A stretch of DNA of 44,773 bases from sequence record PP291582.1; one strand, written 5' to 3'. Source of the stretch: Escherichia phage vB_EcoS_UTEC10. Below are positions 583 to 33,915 of the stretch, one piece after another (within the stretch, counting starts at the first letter, position 1; the number at the start of each line of letters is the position of its first letter). Under the pieces are notes generated by a model. The model was given only the letters and a program-made list of their open reading frames with translations. It made no database searches and had not been told where the DNA came from. The translations under genes were made by a program, and so were the position numbers.

Positions 583-746
583 AAGAAATTCCTCGTTGTC
601 CACATCGCATTCGGATATTTGTTATCGCGGTCCTGCACTACGGCAATCATGTTACCCCGTTGCACCAGGCAGAAGTGCCGTTGCTGCTCGCCGTTGTAGC
701 GACGCCAGATTGCTTCTTCGATTGCTGCGTTGATGTCGCTGAACAT
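579..746 (-). CDS. hypothetical small protein (55 aa)
   Basis: Manually translated (MFSDINAAIEEAIWRRYNGEQQRHF...); stop overlaps the next start (ATGA); not in track because under 60 aa. Confidence 0.35.
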   Translation of the reverse strand: MFSDINAAIEEAIWRRYNGEQQRHFCLVQRGNMIAVVQDRDNKYPNAMWTTRNFL

Positions 747-24361: not shown

Positions 24362-25750
24362 TTAACCGTCCACATTAAAATCAATACGGGTGATATATTT
24401 ACTACCCCACGCAGAATCAGCCTGCGGGATGATGGCGTAATCGTCAACAGCCGTAACGTTTACCACAGAGCCGTCGGAATAGGTAATGTCGATGCTTGTC
24501 GCGCCGTTCATTACTACTTTTGCTGATGCCGTTGTTCTATCTCCTGCAATAGCTGATGTCTGTATGTAACTGGTAGTATTTGCCGATTTCTCTAACTGCG
24601 CGCCCCATACATAAATGCCATTTCCCCCCGTACCCGCGAATATTGAGGATGTGCCGGATGCGAGCTGCACCCGGATAACAGAGTTTCTAGTTGCGCCCGC
24701 CTGGAAGACCATTGTTACCCGATATGTGTCCTCGGAAACCATAACGGCATTTTTTGATACAAAATTAACTCCTGAGTTCGCGACAAATGCGCCAGTAGCA
24801 GGGTTGAATGTTGCGGTCGCTATGGTGCCCGTTGCCACCCTCAGATAAAGGTTTAGTGGGTTGCTAGTGGCTTTTACAAATATTGAATATGAATACAGCT
24901 CATCTTGCTGCACTCCTATCGTCCTGTCGTTGGCGTAATGCTCAGAATTTGAAGTTGTCGCAGTGATTTCTGCCATAGTTATATCACCACGGGGCGATAC
25001 TTCAGCATTATTCCGCACAAATGTTTGGGGTCCAGTTCCCCATGTTTCCGAATTTATGTACAAATTGCGCGAGGCATCTTCTGGCGGCACCCGCCCAACA
25101 GCTTTACCATCAATAAACGTAAGGGGCCATTCATTGGTGGCGGACGGCACAAGATTGCCGTTGCGGTTGATGTAGTAAACCTGTGGCCCGTCATACACAA
25201 TGCGGCTATCCAGGGCGGACGCCAGAAGGTTAATCGGCGGGTATCCTGCAGGCCCTTCATTGCTCCAGATGCGCGGGAACGTCGTCTCATAGTTAGCGTA
25301 TATTTTCAGGAAACTACCCAGGCAGTCACCATAGCAGCCGTACAAATCTGGCAGATTGTTAATCAGGCACTGGTTCTCAAGGTCCTGGAACGGTGATTTC
25401 TCGGCGGTTGCCGTGAAAGTAATCGTCCAGTTAATGCCGTCTTCGGTGGATTCCGCGATGGTTGACGTGATGGTTACCTGATAATCCTCAATACCCATGC
25501 CGAAGTCGTGCGCCATCCAGAAACTTGACGCACCGCCGTCTACTTTTTCGAGGAACGACAGAAACGCCTGCCGCCCCAGCGCCGATGTAATCAGGGTTAC
25601 GCTTATCGGGAACACGTCGTAATATGTGTCGCGCCCCTGACGCACCCCGCCGCCCGCTAAATCGACACTCCAGACGTTGTTACGTCGGGTCATTGAGTAG
25701 CCTTTCGATACCACCGGCTTAAGGCTACGTGGGAAATATAAGTCGCTCAT
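24362..25750 (-). CDS. distal tail / minor tail protein with C-terminal beta-sandwich-like domain
   Basis: 462 aa immediately downstream of the tape measure gene; C-terminal GIYVWGAQLE-type motif. Confidence 0.5.
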   Translation of the reverse strand: MSDLYFPRSLKPVVSKGYSMTRRNNVWSVDLAGGGVRQGRDTYYDVFPISVTLITSALGRQAFLSFLEKVDGGASSFWMAHDFGMGIEDYQVTITSTIAESTEDGINWTITFTATAEKSPFQDLENQCLINNLPDLYGCYGDCLGSFLKIYANYETTFPRIWSNEGPAGYPPINLLASALDSRIVYDGPQVYYINRNGNLVPSATNEWPLTFIDGKAVGRVPPEDASRNLYINSETWGTGPQTFVRNNAEVSPRGDITMAEITATTSNSEHYANDRTIGVQQDELYSYSIFVKATSNPLNLYLRVATGTIATATFNPATGAFVANSGVNFVSKNAVMVSEDTYRVTMVFQAGATRNSVIRVQLASGTSSIFAGTGGNGIYVWGAQLEKSANTTSYIQTSAIAGDRTTASAKVVMNGATSIDITYSDGSVVNVTAVDDYAIIPQADSAWGSKYITRIDFNVDG

Positions 25751-28092
25751 TATTTAAACCCCGGCGCGTTTCTTGTGGCCTTGCGGGCCTTGCTAATCTT
25801 ACTGTTGCTGTTCTGCAAAGATGCAGCAACTTGCTCTTCTATGATGATACGCAGACGGCCTTCATCATCCTGCTCGGTGGATACGTTGCCAATCTGACTC
25901 GATGTATTATTTACAATGGTAACATTAGATGGGCCGGAAGAAGACCCGTTTTGCCCCATAATTTCTTTCATCTGCTGCGCGGTGCGCACACGCGATGCGC
26001 CAGCGGGCATGATAACTTCGGGTTTACCGCGTTCAGCGATGGTGGAAGCCTGCCCTGCGGATAACTGTCCGCCCTGTTCACGCGCGGACCGGATAGCGGA
26101 AACCTGCGCCATACCCGCCCCAACGGCAGCGGCAGCGGCTACGGGGGCCAGGAACGGGCCAACTACAGGGATAGCGGCCGTTGACTTATAAGCCTCAATA
26201 GCTGCTGTGTACGTGGCTATGGTGGCCTGTACGATAGCGAATGCCTTATACGCACCAGAGGCCTCGCCCAACGCAGACCCGATGTTTGACGCCATGTTAC
26301 CGAAGGCGGTTGCCGTTGCGTCGGCACGCTTGGTGGCGTATTGCTCGTTGATGGCGTTAAGCGCGGCCTGATACTGCTTCTCACTAATAAGCCCTTGCTC
26401 ACGGTACTTATCTGCGACCGCCAGTTTCTGCTGCTCCTGGATGTCGAGAAGATCAAGCTCAGTAGCGTTCTGGCCAATAATCTGAGCCATGAAGTCGTCG
26501 CCTTTCTGCTTTTTCTCCTGCCGTTCTTTCTCGCGCTTATCCAATTCTTGCTGCCGTGCGGTATCCGCCTCCAGCATAATCTGAGTTTTGGCGTTCTCGT
26601 ATTGTTGGTCGCTAAGAAGCCTATTGCCATAGAACTCCTGTAGCTTGGTTAGCTGCTGTTCCTGGTTGGCTTCTATTTTCTGGAATACGTCATCATTGAG
26701 ATGAATCGACTGGTAGTAGAAATCCTCAGCAGCTTTCTTCTGGCGCTCGAACGCATCCGCGGCTTTCTTAGCGGCTTTTGCACCAGCGCTATCATCTTCG
26801 GATCCGCCACCAGTACCCGTTACCTTAAATTTACTAAGCCCTTCTTCCTTAGCAGCCTCTTTGTCGATGTCATACGCCGCGCGTTTAAGCGCGACGATAT
26901 TTTGCTGAGCCTCCACCTGTTCACGGAAACTTTTACGGGTCAGGTCAGCAACATCGCGCTGAGTATCCAGTGCCATCCCCAGCTGGAAGTTGATATTTTT
27001 TGCTACGTCTACAGATTCACCTGGTGTGAAGGCCGCTTTCACTAGTCGCCCAGCGTCCTGTGCCCCTTTAACCATATCCTCAAAGAAGCGCTCCATAGCG
27101 GTGAATTCTTCTGCGATGAAATCGAGAGCATCGGCGGCGGATTCCGCTATGGTTGTCGCCGTTTGTTCGCCGCTGTCAGTGATACTTTTACTGCTAAAAT
27201 CCCAAAGTTCATTCAGTCCGTTTATCGCATCGCCTACGAAGCCGAACGCGGCGTCAAACGACGTCTCTATGGCGCTGCCTACTTCTGACGCGATGTCGCC
27301 CCACATACGCATCTCAGCAGCAAGCTCCCCAGATGCAACCTGTGCATTAAGCTCCTGGATTAAGTCATCTATGTATCTGATAGGTTCGGCTAGGGCGCCA
27401 ACATCAAGACTGGTGGCCAGTGTCATTTTTAACTGCGACCATGAGTCGCTGGCACTGGCTATAGCGCCGTTGAGTGTGTTGGCCTGGTCCGCCATAGCAC
27501 CCGCAAAGTTTACGTTACCAATGTTAAGAAGGTACTGCTCGATATCAGCAGCGCTCTTCTTAACTACCGTAGTGGTGCCCTGGAATGTAAATTCAACATC
27601 GTTTTTGTTCTGCTTGGCCTTGATGCCGAACTCTTTAAGGCGCTCAAATTCAAATGTACTGGCGTCCGCAACGGCCTCAATCATCTGATTCAGGTCTTTA
27701 CCCATAGCGGCGGCGGTGTTGCCGTAGGAGCGCAACGCTTCTTCTGATGGGGTGAGGCCGAGCGCCACAAGTTTACGGAAACCCTCTACTGCCTGCTCGA
27801 GCCCGTAAGGAGTGTCGCGCGCGAAGTCTTGCAGGATGCTTAATGCCTGTCTTGCGCCCTGTGTGCTCCCGGTTAACGTTTTCAGGCTGGCGGACATCTT
27901 GTCCAGTTGCCGTTGGGAGTCCACCAGTTCCTGCGCGGCCTTGTAAGCGGTAGCGGCGACAATTGAAGCAAGGCCCGCTACGGCGGTCCCCGCTACTTTT
28001 GCCGACTTGGAGAGATTATCAAGACGGTCCGATGTAGCTTTCGCGCCTTGCTCTGATACTTTTACAACTAAACTAGCTACATCAGCCATCAT
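25750..28092 (-). CDS. tail tape measure protein
   Basis: 780 aa, long helical/coiled-coil protein rich in Ala/Gln/Glu; location downstream of the chaperone pair. Confidence 0.8.
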   Translation of the reverse strand: MMADVASLVVKVSEQGAKATSDRLDNLSKSAKVAGTAVAGLASIVAATAYKAAQELVDSQRQLDKMSASLKTLTGSTQGARQALSILQDFARDTPYGLEQAVEGFRKLVALGLTPSEEALRSYGNTAAAMGKDLNQMIEAVADASTFEFERLKEFGIKAKQNKNDVEFTFQGTTTVVKKSAADIEQYLLNIGNVNFAGAMADQANTLNGAIASASDSWSQLKMTLATSLDVGALAEPIRYIDDLIQELNAQVASGELAAEMRMWGDIASEVGSAIETSFDAAFGFVGDAINGLNELWDFSSKSITDSGEQTATTIAESAADALDFIAEEFTAMERFFEDMVKGAQDAGRLVKAAFTPGESVDVAKNINFQLGMALDTQRDVADLTRKSFREQVEAQQNIVALKRAAYDIDKEAAKEEGLSKFKVTGTGGGSEDDSAGAKAAKKAADAFERQKKAAEDFYYQSIHLNDDVFQKIEANQEQQLTKLQEFYGNRLLSDQQYENAKTQIMLEADTARQQELDKREKERQEKKQKGDDFMAQIIGQNATELDLLDIQEQQKLAVADKYREQGLISEKQYQAALNAINEQYATKRADATATAFGNMASNIGSALGEASGAYKAFAIVQATIATYTAAIEAYKSTAAIPVVGPFLAPVAAAAAVGAGMAQVSAIRSAREQGGQLSAGQASTIAERGKPEVIMPAGASRVRTAQQMKEIMGQNGSSSGPSNVTIVNNTSSQIGNVSTEQDDEGRLRIIIEEQVAASLQNSNSKISKARKATRNAPGFK

Positions 28093-28441
28093 TTCTACCC
28101 TCGAAAATAGCGTCTAAGCTCATGATGATGCCAGATTCAAACATGCCTATATTCTGGCCTGAAACGGTGCTGTACGCCACTAAATCCGACCATCTTAACT
28201 GTTCACGCGGGTACATCTTGATGCCATCATCGTCCACTCGGCGGGTGAATTTGATTTCCCGGTACTTCTCGAAGGTGGTTAGTAGCTCAGGGGGGCATTC
28301 TGGCCCGGTGTCCTGCGTTGCTTCCGGCGCGTCTTGCATAACCCCCATAGCAATTAGCGCGGCTTTATGCCCGTCGGAGATACTGTCAAACTCCCGCCGT
28401 TTGTGGCGAGTTATGAAGTTCCAACGGGCAAACTGGAGCAA
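28082..28441 (-). CDS. tail assembly chaperone, T-like frame (probable -1 frameshift extension of the G-like gene)
   Basis: ORF lies in the -1 frame relative to 28447..28863 and is open from 28474; GGAAAAG sits just before the G stop codon. Confidence 0.45.
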   Translation of the reverse strand: MLQFARWNFITRHKRREFDSISDGHKAALIAMGVMQDAPEATQDTGPECPPELLTTFEKYREIKFTRRVDDDGIKMYPREQLRWSDLVAYSTVSGQNIGMFESGIIMSLDAIFEGRNDG

Positions 28442-28446
28442 CGCGT

Positions 28447-28863
28447 CTACTTTTCCTGCAATTGGTGTAGCTGTTCATTGTGGAAAACAACAACGTGTTC
28501 AGCGAGGCGTTTATATTGTGAGAAAAGGGTATTCAGGTTCTCTTTATTAAATTCATCGTCGAGACTCCAACCGTTAACTAGTTCAAGTGCTAACTGGCGG
28601 TTAAGGTCCGTCGCGGCGTCTTCCATCTTAATATTGTATTCCGAGAAATCTTTCAGTTCCTCGCATTTATCACGAAGCGGTTTCAATTTACCTAATGCCG
28701 CGCGGTACGCAAGTGTAAACGCCCTCATAGCTTTAACAGCAACGTCTGCCTCCGGTGAAACAACGTTAAGCCACTCCCCTGAATCGGTGCCGTCTTTCAG
28801 TGGGATCGGCATACGGGCGCCTTTTTCCGCCTCAGCTTCGTAATAAAAATCGGAAAGTTTCAT
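28447..28863 (-). CDS. tail assembly chaperone (lambda G-like)
   Basis: 138 aa acidic protein immediately upstream of the T-frame ORF and tape measure gene. Confidence 0.5.
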   Translation of the reverse strand: MKLSDFYYEAEAEKGARMPIPLKDGTDSGEWLNVVSPEADVAVKAMRAFTLAYRAALGKLKPLRDKCEELKDFSEYNIKMEDAATDLNRQLALELVNGWSLDDEFNKENLNTLFSQYKRLAEHVVVFHNEQLHQLQEK

Positions 28864-28970
28864 TCTTTAATCCTTTGGTTAAGAGGTTACTGGTTAAGGT
28901 GAATGCGCCAGGCGGGAACCACCCGCTTTTCGTGTGCGACACTAGGCGCAAACTTATTCTAGCACACTAC

Positions 28971-28999
28971 TTGCAGGCCCCAATATAATAGGGTACTAT
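28971..28999 (+). promoter_or_regulatory. cassette promoter TTGCAG-N17-TACTAT with embedded TATAAT and AATAG-GGTA-CTATT repeat
   Basis: CCAATATAATAGGGTACTATTCA is repeated near-identically at 38644-38668 and 40816-40840. Confidence 0.55.
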
Positions 29000-29029
29000 T
29001 CACTTACACCAACAATGGAGGAATTTAAA

Positions 29030-29221
29030 ATGTCAAGTTTACCAGTTTCATTAATTCTGTTTGCACTTCTCGCCTATTTCGCGCCTTTCCTGGTTGCATA
29101 CTTCCGTAATCATAAAGCGAAGTTGGCAATATTCATGGCCAATCTGTTTCTTGGTTGGATTCTGTTGCCGTGGGTATTCATTTTAATCTGGGCTTGCAAC
29201 TCGAACGTGAAAGAGAAGTAA
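29030..29221 (+). CDS. small two-TM membrane protein, superinfection-immunity (Imm)-like
   Basis: Internal ATG with GGAGGAA RBS; 63 aa; NLFLGWILLPWVFILIWA resembles the conserved motif of small superinfection-immunity proteins. Confidence 0.5.
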   Translation: MSSLPVSLILFALLAYFAPFLVAYFRNHKAKLAIFMANLFLGWILLPWVFILIWACNSNVKEK

Positions 29222-29258
29222 GCTACTATAAGACAAATCCTAAGCACGAGGAATAAGC

Positions 29259-30389
29259 ATGGCCCGGAAGAAAATAACCGACGAACAGTTGCAGGAAGAA
29301 TTGAACGCCGGGATGAAGAATATCGATATAGCTCGTAAATACGGCATCTCCGACCGCGTTATTCGTATCCGTAAAGCGAAGCTGGCAAAGAAAGGCGTAG
29401 GCCACGGGCGCGACGTTAGTCACCTTGTACCAGACGGCTACAAGATTAAAGGAACGTCGTCGCTTGTGGACGAGTTCGGCAACACTAAGCTGCAATGGGT
29501 TAAGACCGACACCGATGCCGAACGTCAGGTCGAGTTAATGAAGGCCGTAATCGAGGGCATGAAGTCGGAGATTACCCCCGTTGCTCCTGTTAAAGCCGTT
29601 CGCACCAAACGAGACGACAAGCTACTCAACCTTTACACTGTGTCTGATTTCCATCTCGGTATGCTGGCATGGGCCGACGAGAGCGGCGATGACTGGGATA
29701 TGAAGATTGCAGAAGACCTGTTCTCTCGGTGGTTTGATGCTGCGTTTCAGAAAGCGCCAGATGCGGGAACAGGGGTTATTAACCTTCTTGGTGACTTCGC
29801 GCACTTTGATAGTCTGGATGCCGTTACGCCAGCGAGTGGTCATGTTCTTGACGCGGATACGCGCTATCAGAAACTGGTCCGCTACATGATTCGTATGGTC
29901 CGCCGTGTTGTCGATATGGCTCTGGTTAAACATAAAAATGTTCGCCTGCTTATCGTGCAAGGGAACCATGACGAATCAGGTATGATTTGGTTGGCTGAGA
30001 TGTTCAGTACGCTATACGACAACGAGCCTCGTGTGTTCGTCGATACGTCGCCGGATGTTTACAAGATGGTGCAACACGGCAAAACGACGCTGTTCTTCCA
30101 CCACGGGCATAAAGCACGCTTCGATGCTATCGAACCGGTTATGATTGCCAAGTTCCGCAAAGCGTTCGGTGAGAGCGTTTATAGCTACGCCCACGTGGGC
30201 CACCTGCACCATCAGAAGATTGTAGAAAGCCGTAACATGATTGTTGAGCAACACCGCACCTTAGCGGCTAAAGATGCTTACGCCTCTCGCGGCGGGTGGA
30301 TGTCGGGCCGTAGTGCAAACGTAATTACTTATAGCGCCGAATACGGCGAGGTCGCACGTTTAACTATTTCACCGGAGATGCTGGGATGA
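29259..30389 (+). CDS. HTH domain fused to calcineurin-like metallophosphoesterase
   Basis: N-terminus NIDIARKYGISDRVIRIRKAKL (HTH); C-terminal motifs DFHLG, GDFAHFD, GNHDE, HHGH, GHLHH match the DxH / GD / GNH[DE] / H / GHxH set. Confidence 0.7.
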   Translation: MARKKITDEQLQEELNAGMKNIDIARKYGISDRVIRIRKAKLAKKGVGHGRDVSHLVPDGYKIKGTSSLVDEFGNTKLQWVKTDTDAERQVELMKAVIEGMKSEITPVAPVKAVRTKRDDKLLNLYTVSDFHLGMLAWADESGDDWDMKIAEDLFSRWFDAAFQKAPDAGTGVINLLGDFAHFDSLDAVTPASGHVLDADTRYQKLVRYMIRMVRRVVDMALVKHKNVRLLIVQGNHDESGMIWLAEMFSTLYDNEPRVFVDTSPDVYKMVQHGKTTLFFHHGHKARFDAIEPVMIAKFRKAFGESVYSYAHVGHLHHQKIVESRNMIVEQHRTLAAKDAYASRGGWMSGRSANVITYSAEYGEVARLTISPEMLG

Positions 30390-30871
30390 AAAGTATTGTG
30401 ATTTTCGATTTAGATGGGACATTGGCTGATGGTACGCATCGTTTGCACCTGCTGCCGAAAGATAACTACAACGAAACGTGGGCGTGGAAGCCCTTTAACA
30501 TGGCGTGCAAAGATGATGAACCAATTAGAGATAACATCGAACTGTGTAACGCCCTCAATCGTCGCTACGCCGTTATTATTTTAACGGGCCGTAGTGATGA
30601 TGCAGAAAAAGAAACCAGAATGTGGTTGCAGCGCCACCGCGTCGAATTTTATCAGCTAATCATGCGCGGCAAACACGACAACAGAAAAGACATCGCAATT
30701 AAAGAAGAGGTGTTGCGTGCTATCGGGCTGGAGAGAATCTTGTGTGCATTCGATGATTCTCCGGCGGTAATTAAGCATTTCCGAGGCCTCGGCATAACCA
30801 CACACGCTGTCACTGAATACGACTGTAACGGTAACTCTACACACTTAAAATCACACGGGAGTGATAAATAA
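30386..30871 (+). CDS. HAD-family phosphatase (T4 Pnk phosphatase-domain-like)
   Basis: VIFDLDGTLADG is HAD motif I (DxDGT); later TGR and D-containing motifs; ATGA overlap with the upstream gene. Confidence 0.7.
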   Translation: MKSIVIFDLDGTLADGTHRLHLLPKDNYNETWAWKPFNMACKDDEPIRDNIELCNALNRRYAVIILTGRSDDAEKETRMWLQRHRVEFYQLIMRGKHDNRKDIAIKEEVLRAIGLERILCAFDDSPAVIKHFRGLGITTHAVTEYDCNGNSTHLKSHGSDK

Positions 30872-31425
30872 TGGCTAAGGTAATTATTCTTAATGGCCCT
30901 GCGGGTTGCGGGAAAGACACGCTTGCTAGGGAGCTGGTAGAAATGGGCTTTGCAAAAGGAACTACCAGTTTCAAGAATCCGATGTTCAATATTGCGCTGG
31001 CGGCGTTAGGCCCCGATACTTACCACGAGTTTCTCGACGGCTACGACGACCGGGCGCGGAAAGAAAAGCCGGAAGGCTTCCTTAACGGGTTGTCTCGGCG
31101 TCAGTTCATGATTGCCATTTCTGAGCAATTCATTAAACCGGTATTCGGTGACGATTATTTCGGTAAATATCTCGCTGAAAACTTGCCTGACGGCGACGAA
31201 GTTTTTGTAGTGTCCGACGGTGGATTCGCCAGTGAAGTGGTCCCTATCGTCGCCGCAGGGCATGACGTAAGAATTGTTCGCTTACACAGAGACGGCTATA
31301 CGTTCATCGGCGATAGCCGGGAGTATCTGTATGATGTTAGTGGCGTAAAAGATTACGACATCTACATCATACCGGGTGACGTTAAATCCAACGTCATAGA
31401 CATTGCTCTAAAATTAGGTTTGTAA
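30871..31425 (+). CDS. P-loop kinase (T4 gp1 dNMP-kinase-like, or polynucleotide-kinase-like)
   Basis: Walker A GPAGCGKDT near the N-terminus; overall layout resembles T4 gp1 (SGKDT Walker A, RLHRDG region). Confidence 0.65.
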   Translation: MAKVIILNGPAGCGKDTLARELVEMGFAKGTTSFKNPMFNIALAALGPDTYHEFLDGYDDRARKEKPEGFLNGLSRRQFMIAISEQFIKPVFGDDYFGKYLAENLPDGDEVFVVSDGGFASEVVPIVAAGHDVRIVRLHRDGYTFIGDSREYLYDVSGVKDYDIYIIPGDVKSNVIDIALKLGL

Positions 31426-31429
31426 GAAA

Positions 31430-31455
31430 AAGGCCCCGAAAGGGGCCTTAGTTTT
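31430..31455. terminator. bidirectional Rho-independent terminator (AAGGCCCC-GAAA-GGGGCCTT)
   Basis: Same stem and AGTTTTA flank as the 19060-19086 terminator; overlaps the major tail gene stop. Confidence 0.65.
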
Positions 31456-32620
31456 ATGCGTAGGTGATACGCTGGATAACAATAGACGACTGGTACTGGT
31501 TGCCAGTAGCCTGGCCCTCAATGGACTGAGTGATTGACTCAGGCCCGCCAATCTCTGGCGTAACCGCCGTAAGTTCCGCACGTTTCAGGCTGAAAGACAT
31601 AGCCCCGTTTACCCCCGCCAGAATAGAGTTAATCTCTACCTGCTGTTCGTTGATAAACTTCTGAATCATCGCCATGTCGTACAGCTTACCGGAGATGGAG
31701 AAGGTGTTAGCCGCGCGGCTACGCTCCACAAACGCTACGTTAGTGTTGCCGAGTTCGAACTGCGCCGACGCGCTGTTATCGTTGGTGATGGTCAGGCTAT
31801 CACAACGCAACGGCGTAGAACCGTCGAACACAGAAACGTCAACCGAGGAGAACGGCTCATCACCAAAAGTAACAGATGAGAAGTTGGAACCGGTCGGCGG
31901 CGTAGTGAGAATCTCCTGACTGCGACCGATGAATGGGAAGCTGCCAGTTACCATCGCGTTAACAGCCTGTTCGATGGTAAAACCAGAAACTTCCACGCCT
32001 TTGGTTAACGTGTACGCGTCAGTACCGCCGCACTGGCCTTTGTACCAGGTAAGGATAGAGAACGTCTTACACGTGTTACCGGTTTCCAGCGTGTCGCCGG
32101 TTTTAGCCTTACTAGTTTTTGTCTCGGTGGTCAGGGTGTGTTGGATGCCCGCACCAGTAACAACCGTAGCCGTTACTGCAGTAACAATAAATGGTTTTGC
32201 GTTATCGCCTGTTAAATCGGTAAATGCAATCAGGTCGCCTACCCCAACTCCGTCAGTGATAAAACTGCCGGTAGCGCGTGTGAACGTCTTGCCCGCCGGT
32301 GCGACCGTAATCGACAGACTGGACAGGGAAACACCGGATTGCCACGTAGAGCCTAAAGCACCAGCCAGCCAGTCATCCTGGCTTTTCGAGCTAAGCTCGA
32401 TCGCGTATTCGCCGCTAACCTGTTTGTTACCGGTGCGGATGGATGTAGTTTCACGGCTGCCGTCCAGTTCGTTGGAGGTCAGCGTGTCGCGGGTAATAGC
32501 AGGAACACCGCCTGTGTTGCGCAACGGCGACCATACCGGGTTAGCTGGTGTTACGCCCGGGGTGACTTCCGCCACATAGAATTGCGCGGTATTCGCGCCC
32601 TTAAAAGGAGTTGTAGCCAT
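31454..32620 (-). CDS. major tail (tube) protein
   Basis: About 388 aa Thr/Ser/Gly-rich protein downstream of the tail terminator gene; ATG at 32620 with AAGAGG RBS. Confidence 0.65.
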   Translation of the reverse strand: MATTPFKGANTAQFYVAEVTPGVTPANPVWSPLRNTGGVPAITRDTLTSNELDGSRETTSIRTGNKQVSGEYAIELSSKSQDDWLAGALGSTWQSGVSLSSLSITVAPAGKTFTRATGSFITDGVGVGDLIAFTDLTGDNAKPFIVTAVTATVVTGAGIQHTLTTETKTSKAKTGDTLETGNTCKTFSILTWYKGQCGGTDAYTLTKGVEVSGFTIEQAVNAMVTGSFPFIGRSQEILTTPPTGSNFSSVTFGDEPFSSVDVSVFDGSTPLRCDSLTITNDNSASAQFELGNTNVAFVERSRAANTFSISGKLYDMAMIQKFINEQQVEINSILAGVNGAMSFSLKRAELTAVTPEIGGPESITQSIEGQATGNQYQSSIVIQRITYA

Positions 32621-32622
32621 AT

Positions 32623-33036
32623 TCACAGCCTCTTGGTGAATGCAATAAAGTTAATTGACAATGGTCGTTTGGCCCATCCGTTTTCTACAATCAGCGGCCC
32701 CAGGCTAACCGATTGAACCTCGGCGCAGATGTCGTTACGTGAAAATGACTTACCTGCTTTAAACGCCGTGTTAAGTAAGTCTGCCATTTTATTGATTGGC
32801 GCGCTACCTTTCACCGATGCGTAGTTAATGTCTACCTGATAAACACCGGCGCGTTGTTCCGTGAAGAACAAATCAGCCTGCTCGGTATCCGCAAGTAGCA
32901 TGTAACTTGCCAGATACGGCGTATCGGTTGACGTCGGCGCGTCAATATTTTCAAGCGCAACCTTGATGCCGTTGGTGGTTCCGAAGGCTACCAGCGGCAC
33001 ATCGAACGCTTTGGTTAAGTCTTCAAAGTAGCCCAT
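32623..33036 (-). CDS. tail terminator / tail completion protein
   Basis: 137 aa; synteny immediately upstream of the major tail gene. Confidence 0.45.
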   Translation of the reverse strand: MGYFEDLTKAFDVPLVAFGTTNGIKVALENIDAPTSTDTPYLASYMLLADTEQADLFFTEQRAGVYQVDINYASVKGSAPINKMADLLNTAFKAGKSFSRNDICAEVQSVSLGPLIVENGWAKRPLSINFIAFTKRL

Positions 33037-33431
33037 TATTTCACCTTGTTGGCTTCTTCGTTAATGAGTTGCTGGAAGCGAGACACATTAGTCCTGACAA
33101 CCCCGGCTGGCGCCTGTTGCGACCAACCGTACTCCAGCCGTTGCGCATACGGCAGGTTATTAGTAAGTGTGAACTCGCGCCAGTCGGCGGCTTTCAGTAC
33201 GAAACTTGTAGCGTTTCCGGTTGCAGTGTTTCCTGATTTATCCGTAGCATCTGTAATCCCGGAAGCAGGAGTACCACCAGACGCCATCCAGTTCATACGA
33301 AAGCGGCCAGTGTCTACCGGACTCGCCTTTATGATAGCGGAAAACAGCTTGATAGACACCTGACGCATCACCTTCTCAGGGTTCTTCTTCGCCTTTTCCA
33401 CGAACTTAGAGACGTCAAGCGCGAAACTCAT
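33036..33431 (-). CDS. head-tail joining / neck protein
   Basis: 131 aa; PYAQRLEYGW motif; synteny. Confidence 0.45.
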   Translation of the reverse strand: MSFALDVSKFVEKAKKNPEKVMRQVSIKLFSAIIKASPVDTGRFRMNWMASGGTPASGITDATDKSGNTATGNATSFVLKAADWREFTLTNNLPYAQRLEYGWSQQAPAGVVRTNVSRFQQLINEEANKVK

Positions 33432-33787
33432 TTTCTCACCTGAATAAAGTAGGCCACGACATCATCGTTAACCATCTTCTTCTCAATAGCTACGACAGAC
33501 CATTGCTCGCCGCCGAATTGCACCTTGTCTTCCATCTTCGGGACGACACCGCAATCCGCTTTAACAATCATGTCGCCAGCCTGAATCGTCGTACCGTTTA
33601 CCAGTCCAGCGTTTACCGGAACCGGAACAGCTTTCAACAGCAACACTTCATCGTCAGACCAGACGTACTCACCGAGAACTTCATCCCATACTTTCGAGCC
33701 AGCGCGAATCAGAGATACCGTGCTGCCGAATTTGGTTAGCAGGCGTGTACCCACGCCCTGCATACGTTTGCTGAAAGCGGTGCTCAT
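33428..33787 (-). CDS. head-tail connector protein
   Basis: Internal ATG at 33787 with GGGGAG RBS (MSTAFSKRMQG...). Confidence 0.4.
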   Translation of the reverse strand: MSTAFSKRMQGVGTRLLTKFGSTVSLIRAGSKVWDEVLGEYVWSDDEVLLLKAVPVPVNAGLVNGTTIQAGDMIVKADCGVVPKMEDKVQFGGEQWSVVAIEKKMVNDDVVAYFIQVRK

Positions 33788-33915
33788 GTTGACTCCCCGC
33801 AAACCGCTAAAAATATAATTAGAGCTGTTGTTGATACCAGCGCAAACACTGATACCAAAAATTCGTACTTCCACAAAAAATCAGAGTTAATCCACATATT
33901 AATTATTTTACGCAT
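33784..33915 (-). CDS. small single-TM membrane protein (43 aa)
   Basis: MRKIINMWINSDFLWKYEFLVSVFALVSTTALIIFLAVCGEST; ATG overlaps the upstream stop and its stop overlaps the downstream ATG. Confidence 0.25.
   Translation of the reverse strand: MRKIINMWINSDFLWKYEFLVSVFALVSTTALIIFLAVCGEST

What the first reader, a model, noticed from the sequence alone, without database searches (positions are those of the whole stretch)
28441..28480. Probable programmed -1 ribosomal frameshift producing a G-T-type tail chaperone fusion
The ORF 28082..28441 is in the -1 frame relative to 28447..28863 and is open from 28474, overlapping the last codons of the upstream gene. GGAAAAG (minus strand; plus coordinates 28450-28456) lies just before the upstream stop, so a Lys-tRNA slip on AAAG would fuse the frames. 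This is the arrangement seen upstream of tape measure genes in many siphoviruses.
Basis: partly seen in the sequence, partly recalled or inferred. Interest (0 to 1): 0.5.

Follow-up and report, generated by a model that had tools for sequence, protein, structure and literature searches.

The report
Tail chaperone G/GT ribosomal frameshift site
This is the usual programmed -1 ribosomal frameshift that lets a siphophage make a short and a long tail-assembly chaperone from one gene pair just before its tape-measure gene. It is already annotated in near-identical phages, so it is ordinary, apart from using a minimal A_AAG-plus-stop site instead of the textbook seven-base site.

Summary
On the minus strand a 138-aa ORF (28863..28447, Pfam Phage_TAC_4) ends CAG GAA AAG TAG. 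The -1 frame is open from 28474 to 28082 (Pfam Phage_TAC_18) and overlaps the start of the tape-measure gene.

The window is a Kagunavirus-like E. coli siphophage. In 74 distinct related sequences, with T-part identity down to 42-45%:
- A_AAG is invariant.
- A TAG or TAA stop follows it directly in 73 of 74.
- The -1 frame opens only 3 nt upstream in some relatives.
- The T-frame protein is conserved from the first post-shift codons (K-V-x-A-L).
- The window's TTG "start" is CTG in most relatives.

This pins a single tRNA-Lys -1 slip at 28453..28450, giving a 260-aa GT fusion (...LQEK|VDALL...). The same junction is deposited for phages K1ind1 and fPoEco01, so the feature is already known.

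The seven-base motif is not canonical: its upstream half varies across relatives. One published genome note on an identical sequence reported "no canonical slippery sequence". No stimulatory RNA structure is conserved across the family. A stable hairpin 19 nt downstream is confined to the window's clade. No experiment shows the fusion protein.

The parts
28447..28863 (-). G-like tail assembly chaperone ORF: 138 aa, 15.9 kDa, ATG at 28863, stop TAG at 28449..28447. An AAGGA Shine-Dalgarno sequence lies at 28875..28871.
   Evidence: Pfam Phage_TAC_4 scores 33 bits against a cut-off of 21.1. phrog_15027 matches positions 1-138 and phrog_313 also matches.
28450..28456 (-). Shift site G_GAA_AAG. 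The conserved part is the tetramer A_AAG at 28453..28450. tRNA-Lys moves from AAG to AAA, and base 28450 is read twice.
   Evidence: A_AAG is invariant in 74 of 74 distinct relatives. The heptamers seen are GGAAAAG 54, CGCAAAG 11, AGCAAAG 4, GGCAAAG 2, AAAAAAG 2 and GTCAAAG 1. In some relatives the T frame opens only 3 nt upstream.
28447..28449 (-). Zero-frame stop UAG directly 3' of the slippery codon. It is a candidate pausing element (a 'shifty stop').
   Evidence: A stop directly follows AAG in 73 of 74 distinct relatives: TAG 50, TAA 23, never TGA. The third base of the overlapping T-frame Val codon is A in 28 of 29 representatives.
28082..28450 (-). T-part of the fusion in the -1 frame: 122 aa from GTA at 28450..28448 to stop TGA at 28084..28082. 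The GT fusion is 260 aa, 29.8 kDa.
   Evidence: Pfam Phage_TAC_18 scores 61.8 bits against a cut-off of 27 at fusion residues 179-255. phrog_15027 matches positions 139-259. K1, V2, A4 and L5 are invariant in 12 diverse T sequences.
28439..28441 (-). TTG that a mechanical ORF call takes as the T start. An AGGA sequence lies 12 nt upstream at 28457..28454.
   Evidence: It is TTG in only 14 of 74 distinct relatives and CTG elsewhere. In the rest, the next start-like codon lies 11 to more than 40 codons downstream. Annotators and gene callers pick inconsistent starts.
28439..28444 (-). GCG-YTG, an invariant six bases 7-12 nt 3' of the shift site, including the synonymous third base of the Ala codon. 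Its role is unexplained.
   Evidence: GCG occurs in 29 of 29 representatives and YTG in 29 of 29, whereas Gly37 uses all four codons.
28368..28430 (-). Stable stem-loop starting 19 nt after AAG. It is specific to the window's clade and is not established as a stimulator.
   Evidence: MFE is -34.1 kcal/mol with z -3.8. The 14 close sequences keep 8-10 of 10 stem pairs; the 60 distant ones mostly keep 3-6, with mean z -0.42. RNAalifold finds no family-wide structure, and only 60.7% of cells are paired.
25750..28092 (-). Tape measure protein gene (780 aa). Its ATG overlaps the end of the T frame by 11 nt.
   Evidence: phrog_1538 matches at E 5e-207. Pfam TMP_3 gives a sub-threshold match. Relatives annotate it as tape measure.
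31454..32626 (-). Tail tube (major tail) protein gene. By analogy with lambda gpV, it is the presumed binding partner of the T part.
   Evidence: Pfam Phage_tube_2 matches at E 3e-37.

Best explanation
Most ribosomes translating the 138-aa chaperone gene terminate at UAG (28449..28447) and release G. A minority slip back one base. tRNA-Lys paired to AAG (28452..28450) re-pairs to AAA (28453..28451), so the next codon read is GUA (28450..28448). Translation then continues in the -1 frame to 28082, giving a 260-aa GT fusion (...LQEK|VDALLQFARW...).

By analogy with lambda, many G copies and a few GT copies coat the tape-measure protein. The T part recruits the tail-tube protein. Neither protein stays in the virion.

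Shown here: the reading-frame layout, the protein families, the conservation of A_AAG and the adjacent stop, and the absence of a usable T start in relatives.

Inferred: that the slip occurs, its efficiency, whether it happens with Lys-tRNA in the P site while the stop codon waits for RF1 or during A-site accommodation or translocation, and the assembly role.
For: - Layout and coordinates.
- G is Phage_TAC_4 and T is Phage_TAC_18, both above Pfam cut-offs. phrog_15027, a 259-position 'tail assembly chaperone' profile, matches G at 1-138 and T at 139-259.
- The tape-measure gene follows directly.
- In 92 related loci (74 distinct sequences, 29 representatives below 90% nt identity), A_AAG is invariant. 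The preceding codon is GAA, GCA, AAA or UCA, so it always ends in A whatever the amino acid. AAAGT is the longest invariant run in 190 nt.
- The T frame is closed until 3 nt before AAAG in some relatives.
- T-frame residues K-V-x-A-L are invariant. tblastn hits with the T part start at residue 1 down to 42% identity.
- The window's TTG is CTG in 27 of 29 representatives.
- Three further metagenomic contigs carry GGAAAAGTAG in the same place.
- The fusion built with this junction equals the deposited proteins QNO11812.1 (fPoEco01) and ADA82368.1 (K1ind1) residue for residue. The window's GT is 99.2% identical to the fPoEco01 fusion.
- Literature: A_AA.G is the most shift-prone tetramer in E. 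coli (PMC4066793). A single tRNA-Lys reads both AAA and AAG, and G-T frameshifting is widespread (PMC5009743). P-site slippage next to a slowly decoded A-site codon, and A-site slippage at A_AAG, are both described (PMC10861913).
Against: - I found no experimental detection of the fusion for this phage group. All support is comparative.
- G_GAA_AAG is not a canonical X_XXY_YYZ heptamer. The Shashou genome note, on an identical sequence, stated there is no canonical slippery sequence (PMC6776780).
- In reporter constructs, tetramer motifs without a stimulator averaged only 0.147% against 0.112% background (PMC4066793).
- No stimulatory structure or upstream Shine-Dalgarno-like element is conserved here.
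- In the window's own clade a TTG with an AGGA 12 nt upstream could allow some independent initiation.
Confidence: 0.88

Rival explanations
1. T is a separate protein initiated at TTG 28441, using AGGA (28457..28454) as its ribosome-binding site. No frameshift or fusion occurs. Many GenBank records and the Shashou annotation take this view.
For: TTG and AGGA are present in the window. Shashou annotates an RBS and CDS at the equivalent positions. Many records list two separate proteins.
Against: - TTG occurs in only 14 of 74 distinct relatives and is CTG elsewhere. AGGA is absent from 43 of the 60 distant sequences.
- The three codons before TTG (V-x-A) are conserved as protein.
- The third-position A upstream of AAG is kept across four different codons, which a start-site model does not explain.
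- The 12-nt spacing is long.
- Annotated T starts are inconsistent, giving 119, 110 and 88 aa or no call at all.
Confidence: 0.05
2. Termination-reinitiation: ribosomes finish G at UAG and a fraction restart at the invariant YUG codon 6 nt downstream, giving a separate T protein coupled to G translation.
For: The stop and the YTG codon are both invariant and 6 nt apart, and GCG-YTG is conserved at the nucleotide level.
Against: - CUG is a very poor bacterial start codon (general knowledge), yet it is the form in 27 of 29 representatives.
- The model does not explain the invariance of the A before AAG, the conserved K-V-x-A residues, or the relatives with the classical A_AAA_AAG heptamer at the same place (L075, L080).
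Confidence: 0.04
3. The slip is efficient in this clade because the stable downstream fold (28430..28368, with outer pairings reaching to 4 nt past AAG) acts as a classical structural stimulator, as in dnaX or IS elements.
For: The local fold is unusually stable, with z -3.8. Longer folds pair bases starting 4-5 nt after AAG with a site about 110 nt downstream. Some covariation appears in one helix.
Against: - The main stem starts 19 nt after AAG, beyond the usual 5-9 nt spacing (general knowledge).
- The fold is absent from 60 distant sequences that keep A_AAG plus the stop.
- RNAalifold gives -0.5 to -0.8 kcal/mol family-wide.
- About 40% of cells are unpaired for both candidate structures.
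- The structure was derived from the window itself, which biases the counts in its favour.
Confidence: 0.15

Closest known systems
Phage lambda G / GT tail assembly chaperones (Levin et al. 1993; Xu et al. 2004, 2013, 2014; as summarised in PMC5009743)
   Same: - A short chaperone ORF is followed by a -1 frame extension that ends at the tape-measure gene.
- The slip is on ...A_AAG by tRNA-Lys.
- Sizes are similar: lambda G 140 aa and T 144 aa, against 138 aa and 122 aa here.
- The presumed role is to set a G:GT ratio for tail assembly.
   Different: - Lambda uses the canonical G_GGA_AAG, with the G stop five sense codons further on. Here the site is G_GAA_AAG with the stop directly adjacent.
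- The Pfam families differ: lambda has Phage_TAC_2 and Phage_tail_T, against Phage_TAC_4 and Phage_TAC_18 here.
- Lambda G follows the major tail gene V directly. Here a four-gene opposite-strand cassette lies between the tube gene and G.
Annotated GT fusions of Guernseyvirinae phages: K1ind1 ORF21A/21B (ADA82368.1) and vB_EcoS_fPoEco01 PE1_024/025 (QNO11812.1)
   Same: Same gene family, same junction ...LQEK|VDAL..., same 260-aa product. The fPoEco01 fusion is 99.2% identical to the window's.
   Different: Nothing of substance. The window's exact 260-aa sequence differs at 2 residues and is not itself deposited.
A_AAG tetranucleotide (NNA_AAG) -1 frameshifting, e.g. IS1222 G_CGA_AAG and Bacillus subtilis cdd A_CGA_AAG (PMC5009743)
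   Same: A single tRNA-Lys slips on A_AAG without full re-pairing of the upstream tRNA. The family here includes C_GCA_AAG, A_GCA_AAG and G_UCA_AAG.
   Different: From my own knowledge, those cases rely on a pseudoknot or an upstream Shine-Dalgarno-like stimulator. No such element is conserved here. Instead a stop codon is adjacent.
'Shifty stop' frameshifting (Weiss et al. 1987; prfB and antizyme as +1 examples)
   Same: The shift-prone codon sits immediately 5' of a stop codon. Slow decoding of the stop gives time for the P-site tRNA to slip.
   Different: The best-studied natural cases are +1 shifts, whereas this one is -1. The stimulatory role of the stop is not tested here.

Membership tests
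G/GT-type tail assembly chaperone frameshift (lambda paradigm, Xu et al. 2004) | Two overlapping ORFs immediately upstream of the tape-measure gene, the second in the -1 frame | tested here: met
   G is 28863..28447. The T frame is open from 28474 to 28082. The tape-measure gene starts at 28092.
G/GT-type tail assembly chaperone frameshift (lambda paradigm, Xu et al. 2004) | The pair lies between the major tail (tube) gene and the tape-measure gene | tested here: met
   The tube gene is 32626..31454 (Phage_tube_2). The order is kept, but a + strand cassette at 29015..31425 is inserted between the tube gene and G.
G/GT-type tail assembly chaperone frameshift (lambda paradigm, Xu et al. 2004) | Canonical X_XXY_YYZ slippery heptamer in the overlap | tested here: not met
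   G_GAA_AAG has no XXX triplet. Relatives carry C_GCA_AAG, A_GCA_AAG, G_GCA_AAG and G_UCA_AAG. Only 2 of 74 have A_AAA_AAG.
G/GT-type tail assembly chaperone frameshift (lambda paradigm, Xu et al. 2004) | A shift-prone site where the tRNA can re-pair in the -1 frame (at minimum Z_ZZN), inside the overlap | tested here: met
   A_AAG is at 28453..28450 and is invariant in 74 of 74. It ranks as the best tetramer in E. coli (PMC4066793).
G/GT-type tail assembly chaperone frameshift (lambda paradigm, Xu et al. 2004) | The downstream ORF lacks a conserved start of its own and is conserved as protein from the shift site | tested here: met
   K-V-x-A-L is invariant. TTG occurs in only 14 of 74, and other start-like codons lie 11 to more than 40 codons downstream.
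G/GT-type tail assembly chaperone frameshift (lambda paradigm, Xu et al. 2004) | A fusion protein is made at a low fixed ratio and is required for tail assembly | not testable with these tools
   This needs Western blot or mass spectrometry of infected cells, plus genetics.
Lambda gpG / gpT sequence families (Pfam Phage_TAC_2, Phage_tail_T) | Significant match to those profiles | tested here: not met
   Lambda G and T hit PF06894 and PF06223. The window's GT hits neither.
Pfam Phage_TAC_4 (PF08748) and Phage_TAC_18 (PF23812) | Score above the curated gathering cut-off | tested here: met
   33.0 bits against 21.1, and 61.8 bits against 27.
Stimulated -1 PRF of the dnaX / IS3 type | Shine-Dalgarno-like sequence about 10-14 nt upstream of the shift site | tested here: not met
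   No conserved motif was found. The only recurrent AGGA abuts the site at -4 and is missing in 43 of 60 distant sequences.
Stimulated -1 PRF of the dnaX / IS3 type | Conserved hairpin or pseudoknot starting about 5-9 nt downstream | tested here: not met
   There is no family-wide consensus structure. A clade-specific hairpin starts at +20. A possible long-range helix from +5 is 60.7% paired.
'Shifty stop' sites | Stop codon immediately 3' of the slippery codon | tested here: met
   UAG is at 28449..28447. The stop is adjacent in 73 of 74 relatives. Its stimulatory effect is untested.

The most novel reading that the evidence does not exclude
The frameshift signal of this whole phage subfamily may be a minimal, structure-independent module: A_AAG_UAR plus the invariant GCG-YUG context. 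In this reading, competition between RF1-mediated termination and P-site tRNA-Lys slippage sets the G:GT ratio. The ratio would then respond to host RF1 activity or to read-through conditions, rather than to an RNA structure.
Probability: 0.35. Interest if true: 0.4.

Novelty: already known. Interest (0 to 1): 0.2.

Why it matters
The finding matters mainly for annotation. Most records in this phage group list the T part as a separate "hypothetical protein" with arbitrary starts (119, 110 or 88 aa). One published note denied a slippery site on an identical sequence. The comparative data here show that the join at K138/V139 is the correct gene model.

It also gives a clean natural example of a -1 G/GT frameshift that relies on a bare A_AAG tetramer abutting a stop codon. 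That could be a convenient system for studying shifts driven by competition with termination.

Tried and rejected
- **Structure prediction.** AlphaFold2 models of G (4-sequence alignment) and of the T part (single sequence) had mean pLDDT 51 and 43. That is too low for fold searches, so none were run.
- **Large protein database search.** The GT query returned only 5 hits, so it gave no deep alignment.
- **Solved structures and NCBIfam.** The PDB sequence search gave no meaningful match, with best E 0.08. NCBIfam gave none.
- **Bacterial genomes.** The scan found a single locus, probably contamination.
- **Transcriptional slippage.** I rejected it because the A run is only 4 bases here and 3 in GCAAAG relatives. 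From general knowledge, runs that short do not support RNA polymerase slippage.
- **Other shift sites in the overlap.** I rejected these because the -1 frame opens only 3 nt before AAAG in some relatives.
- **Upstream Shine-Dalgarno stimulator.** Rejected.
- **Family-wide downstream structure.** Rejected.
- **Anany et al. 2015 paper on Jerseyvirinae (PMID 25663216).** It is not held in the library.

Full report
**What is in the sequence**

Everything below is on the minus strand.
- An ORF runs from ATG 28863 to TAG 28449..28447 and encodes 138 aa ending ...LHQLQEK. An AAGGA ribosome-binding site precedes it.
- Its last codons are CAG GAA AAG TAG.
- The -1 frame carries a TGA at 28477..28475 and is then open to TGA 28084..28082.
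- A -1 slip of the tRNA on AAG gives ...LQEK|VDALLQFARW... and a 260-aa product of 29.8 kDa, against 15.9 kDa for G alone.
- The next gene starts at 28092, overlaps the end of this frame by 11 nt, and is the tape-measure protein (phrog_1538, E 5e-207).

All coordinates in the finding are correct.

**Identity of the genes and of the phage**

- The region is 86-92% identical at the DNA level to Kagunavirus phages of E. coli in the subfamily Guernseyvirinae.
- The G part matches Pfam Phage_TAC_4 and the T part matches Phage_TAC_18, both above curated cut-offs.
- phrog_15027 is a 259-position 'tail assembly chaperone' profile. It matches G at positions 1-138 and the T part at 139-259. So fused proteins with this junction already seed a public family.
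- The tail-tube gene lies at 32626..31454.
- A four-gene cassette on the opposite strand separates the tube gene from G. It encodes a superinfection immunity protein, a metallophosphoesterase, a PNKP-type phosphatase and a kinase-like protein (29015..31425).

**Comparative test of the frameshift**

I collected 92 related loci from GenBank phages and IMG/VR. They reduce to 74 distinct 190-nt sequences around the site, or 29 representatives below 90% nt identity. T-part identity falls to 42-45%.

- **The tetramer is invariant.** A_AAG is present in all 74. The rest of the heptamer varies: GGAAAAG 54, CGCAAAG 11, AGCAAAG 4, GGCAAAG 2, AAAAAAG 2, GTCAAAG 1. The codon before AAG is therefore GAA, GCA, AAA or UCA. 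It always ends in A whatever the amino acid, which points to selection on the nucleotide rather than the protein.
- **It is the conservation peak.** AAAGT is the longest invariant run in the 190-nt alignment.
- **The shift window is tiny.** In some relatives a -1 frame stop lies only 3 nt before AAAG (for example L089). The shift can only occur on NNA_AAG.
- **T is conserved from the shift site.** The T-frame protein is invariant at K1, V2, A4 and L5. tblastn hits with the T part begin at residue 1 even at 42% identity.
- **The TTG is not a conserved start.** The TTG at 28441 occurs in only 14 of the 74 sequences. Elsewhere it is CTG, and the next start-like codon lies 11 to more than 40 codons downstream.
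- **Annotations disagree on T.** Annotators and gene callers give T lengths of 119, 110 or 88 aa, or call no gene at all.
- **Independent contigs agree.** Three further metagenomic contigs, found through G homologues, carry GGAAAAGTAG in the same place.
- **A classical site at the same place.** A distant chaperone gene (L030) has the classical A_AAA_AAC directly before its stop.

**Mechanism**

The conserved elements are A_AAG and a stop codon directly after it. The stop is adjacent in 73 of 74 sequences: TAG 50, TAA 23, never TGA. The single exception reads AAG TTA TAG.

The upstream tRNA cannot re-pair in the GCA and UCA variants. The classical tandem slip is therefore not the conserved feature. 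A single tRNA-Lys slip is.

The literature supports this reading:
- E. coli has one tRNA-Lys for both AAA and AAG (PMC5009743).
- A_AA.G is the most shift-prone tetramer in E. coli (PMC4066793).
- Two single-tRNA routes are described. One is P-site slippage next to a slowly decoded A-site codon. The other is A-site slippage at A_AAG, helped by a wobble-prone upstream tRNA (PMC10861913; PMC5009743).

The near-universal adjacent stop favours the first route, with RF1-dependent termination competing against the slip. This is inference, not a tested result. In reporter constructs, tetramer motifs without a stimulator averaged only 0.147% shifting against 0.112% background. Some context effect therefore seems to be needed.

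**Search for stimulators**

- **Upstream.** No Shine-Dalgarno-like sequence is conserved.
- **Downstream hairpin.** The window has a stable hairpin at 28430..28368 (-34.1 kcal/mol, z -3.8). It starts 19 nt after AAG. It is kept only in the 14 close sequences. The 60 distant ones average z -0.42, and RNAalifold finds nothing family-wide.
- **Pair counts.** Only 60.7% of cells are paired, both for this fold and for a possible long-range helix starting 5 nt after AAG. Both structures were derived from the window itself, which inflates their apparent support.
- **Unexplained constraint.** GCG-YTG at 28444..28439 is invariant, including a synonymous third base.

**Comparison with known systems**

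Lambda has the same layout but differs in detail. It uses the canonical G_GGA_AAG, and its G stop lies five sense codons further on. Its proteins belong to other Pfam families, Phage_TAC_2 and Phage_tail_T. The window's system therefore works like lambda G/GT but belongs to different sequence families.

Within its own group the feature is already recorded:
- K1ind1 annotates ORF21A/21B as a joined CDS, and fPoEco01 annotates a 'frameshift product'.
- Fusions I built with the K|V junction equal the deposited proteins ADA82368.1 and QNO11812.1 exactly.
- The window's fusion is 99.2% identical to the fPoEco01 fusion.

Most other records split the genes. The Shashou genome note reports 'no canonical slippery sequence' (PMC6776780) for a sequence identical to the window's. 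That statement is true of the heptamer but not of the tetramer.

**Verdict**

The feature is an already known, routine G/GT frameshift. Two things add modest interest: the minimal A_AAG-plus-stop signal, and the inconsistent public annotation. I found no experimental evidence for the fusion protein in this phage group.

Structure prediction gave low-confidence models and the PDB sequence search gave nothing. The fold of either part could therefore not be compared with solved chaperones.

Noticed in passing
window 29015..31425 (+ strand): A four-gene cassette on the opposite strand sits between the tail-tube gene and the G gene. It comprises Imm_superinfect (29015..29221), a metallophosphoesterase (29259..30389), a HAD/PNKP phosphatase (30386..30871) and a kinase-like P-loop protein (30871..31425). 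G-T-TMP must therefore have their own promoter in 28864..29014.
   Followed up: partly
window 33036..33874 (- strand): phrog_17193, a 250-position profile, matches two adjacent ORFs joined by an ATGA stop/start overlap. ORF 33874..33428 covers profile positions 1-119 and ORF 33431..33036 covers 120-250. Some database entries therefore hold them as one protein.
   Followed up: no
window 28439..28444 (- strand): GCG-YTG, 7-12 nt after the shift site, is invariant at the nucleotide level in 29 diverse representatives, including a synonymous position. No pairing partner is conserved.
   Followed up: partly
window 24362..25750 (- strand): The gene after the tape-measure gene encodes 462 aa here and has a similar size in phage Golestan (1419 nt). 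In fPoEco01 and KMB36 the gene at this position is only 501 nt. This is a variable module in otherwise ~92% identical genomes.
   Followed up: no
L118 (NZ_JACVEL010000023.1, Taishania pollutisoli scaffold23): A Jerseyvirus-like T gene (86% aa identity) sits on a 13-kb scaffold of a genome assembly titled Taishania pollutisoli, not an enterobacterium. It is most likely phage contamination of the assembly.
   Followed up: no
L024 / L048 (IMGVR_UViG_638275545_000001): The G ORF of this relative is broken by an apparent indel while its T part is intact. This is probably a sequencing error in an old record.
   Followed up: no
L072 (IMGVR_UViG_2162886012_000023), locus positions ~698..712: This is the only relative in which the stop is not adjacent to A_AAG. 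It reads GCA AAG TTA TAG, with a Leu UUA codon in between.
   Followed up: no
window 28915..28940: A GC-rich hairpin, GCGGG-N5-CCCGC, is followed by TTTT on the + strand in the divergent intergenic region upstream of G. It looks like a terminator facing the immunity cassette. The simple terminator scan did not list it.
   Followed up: no
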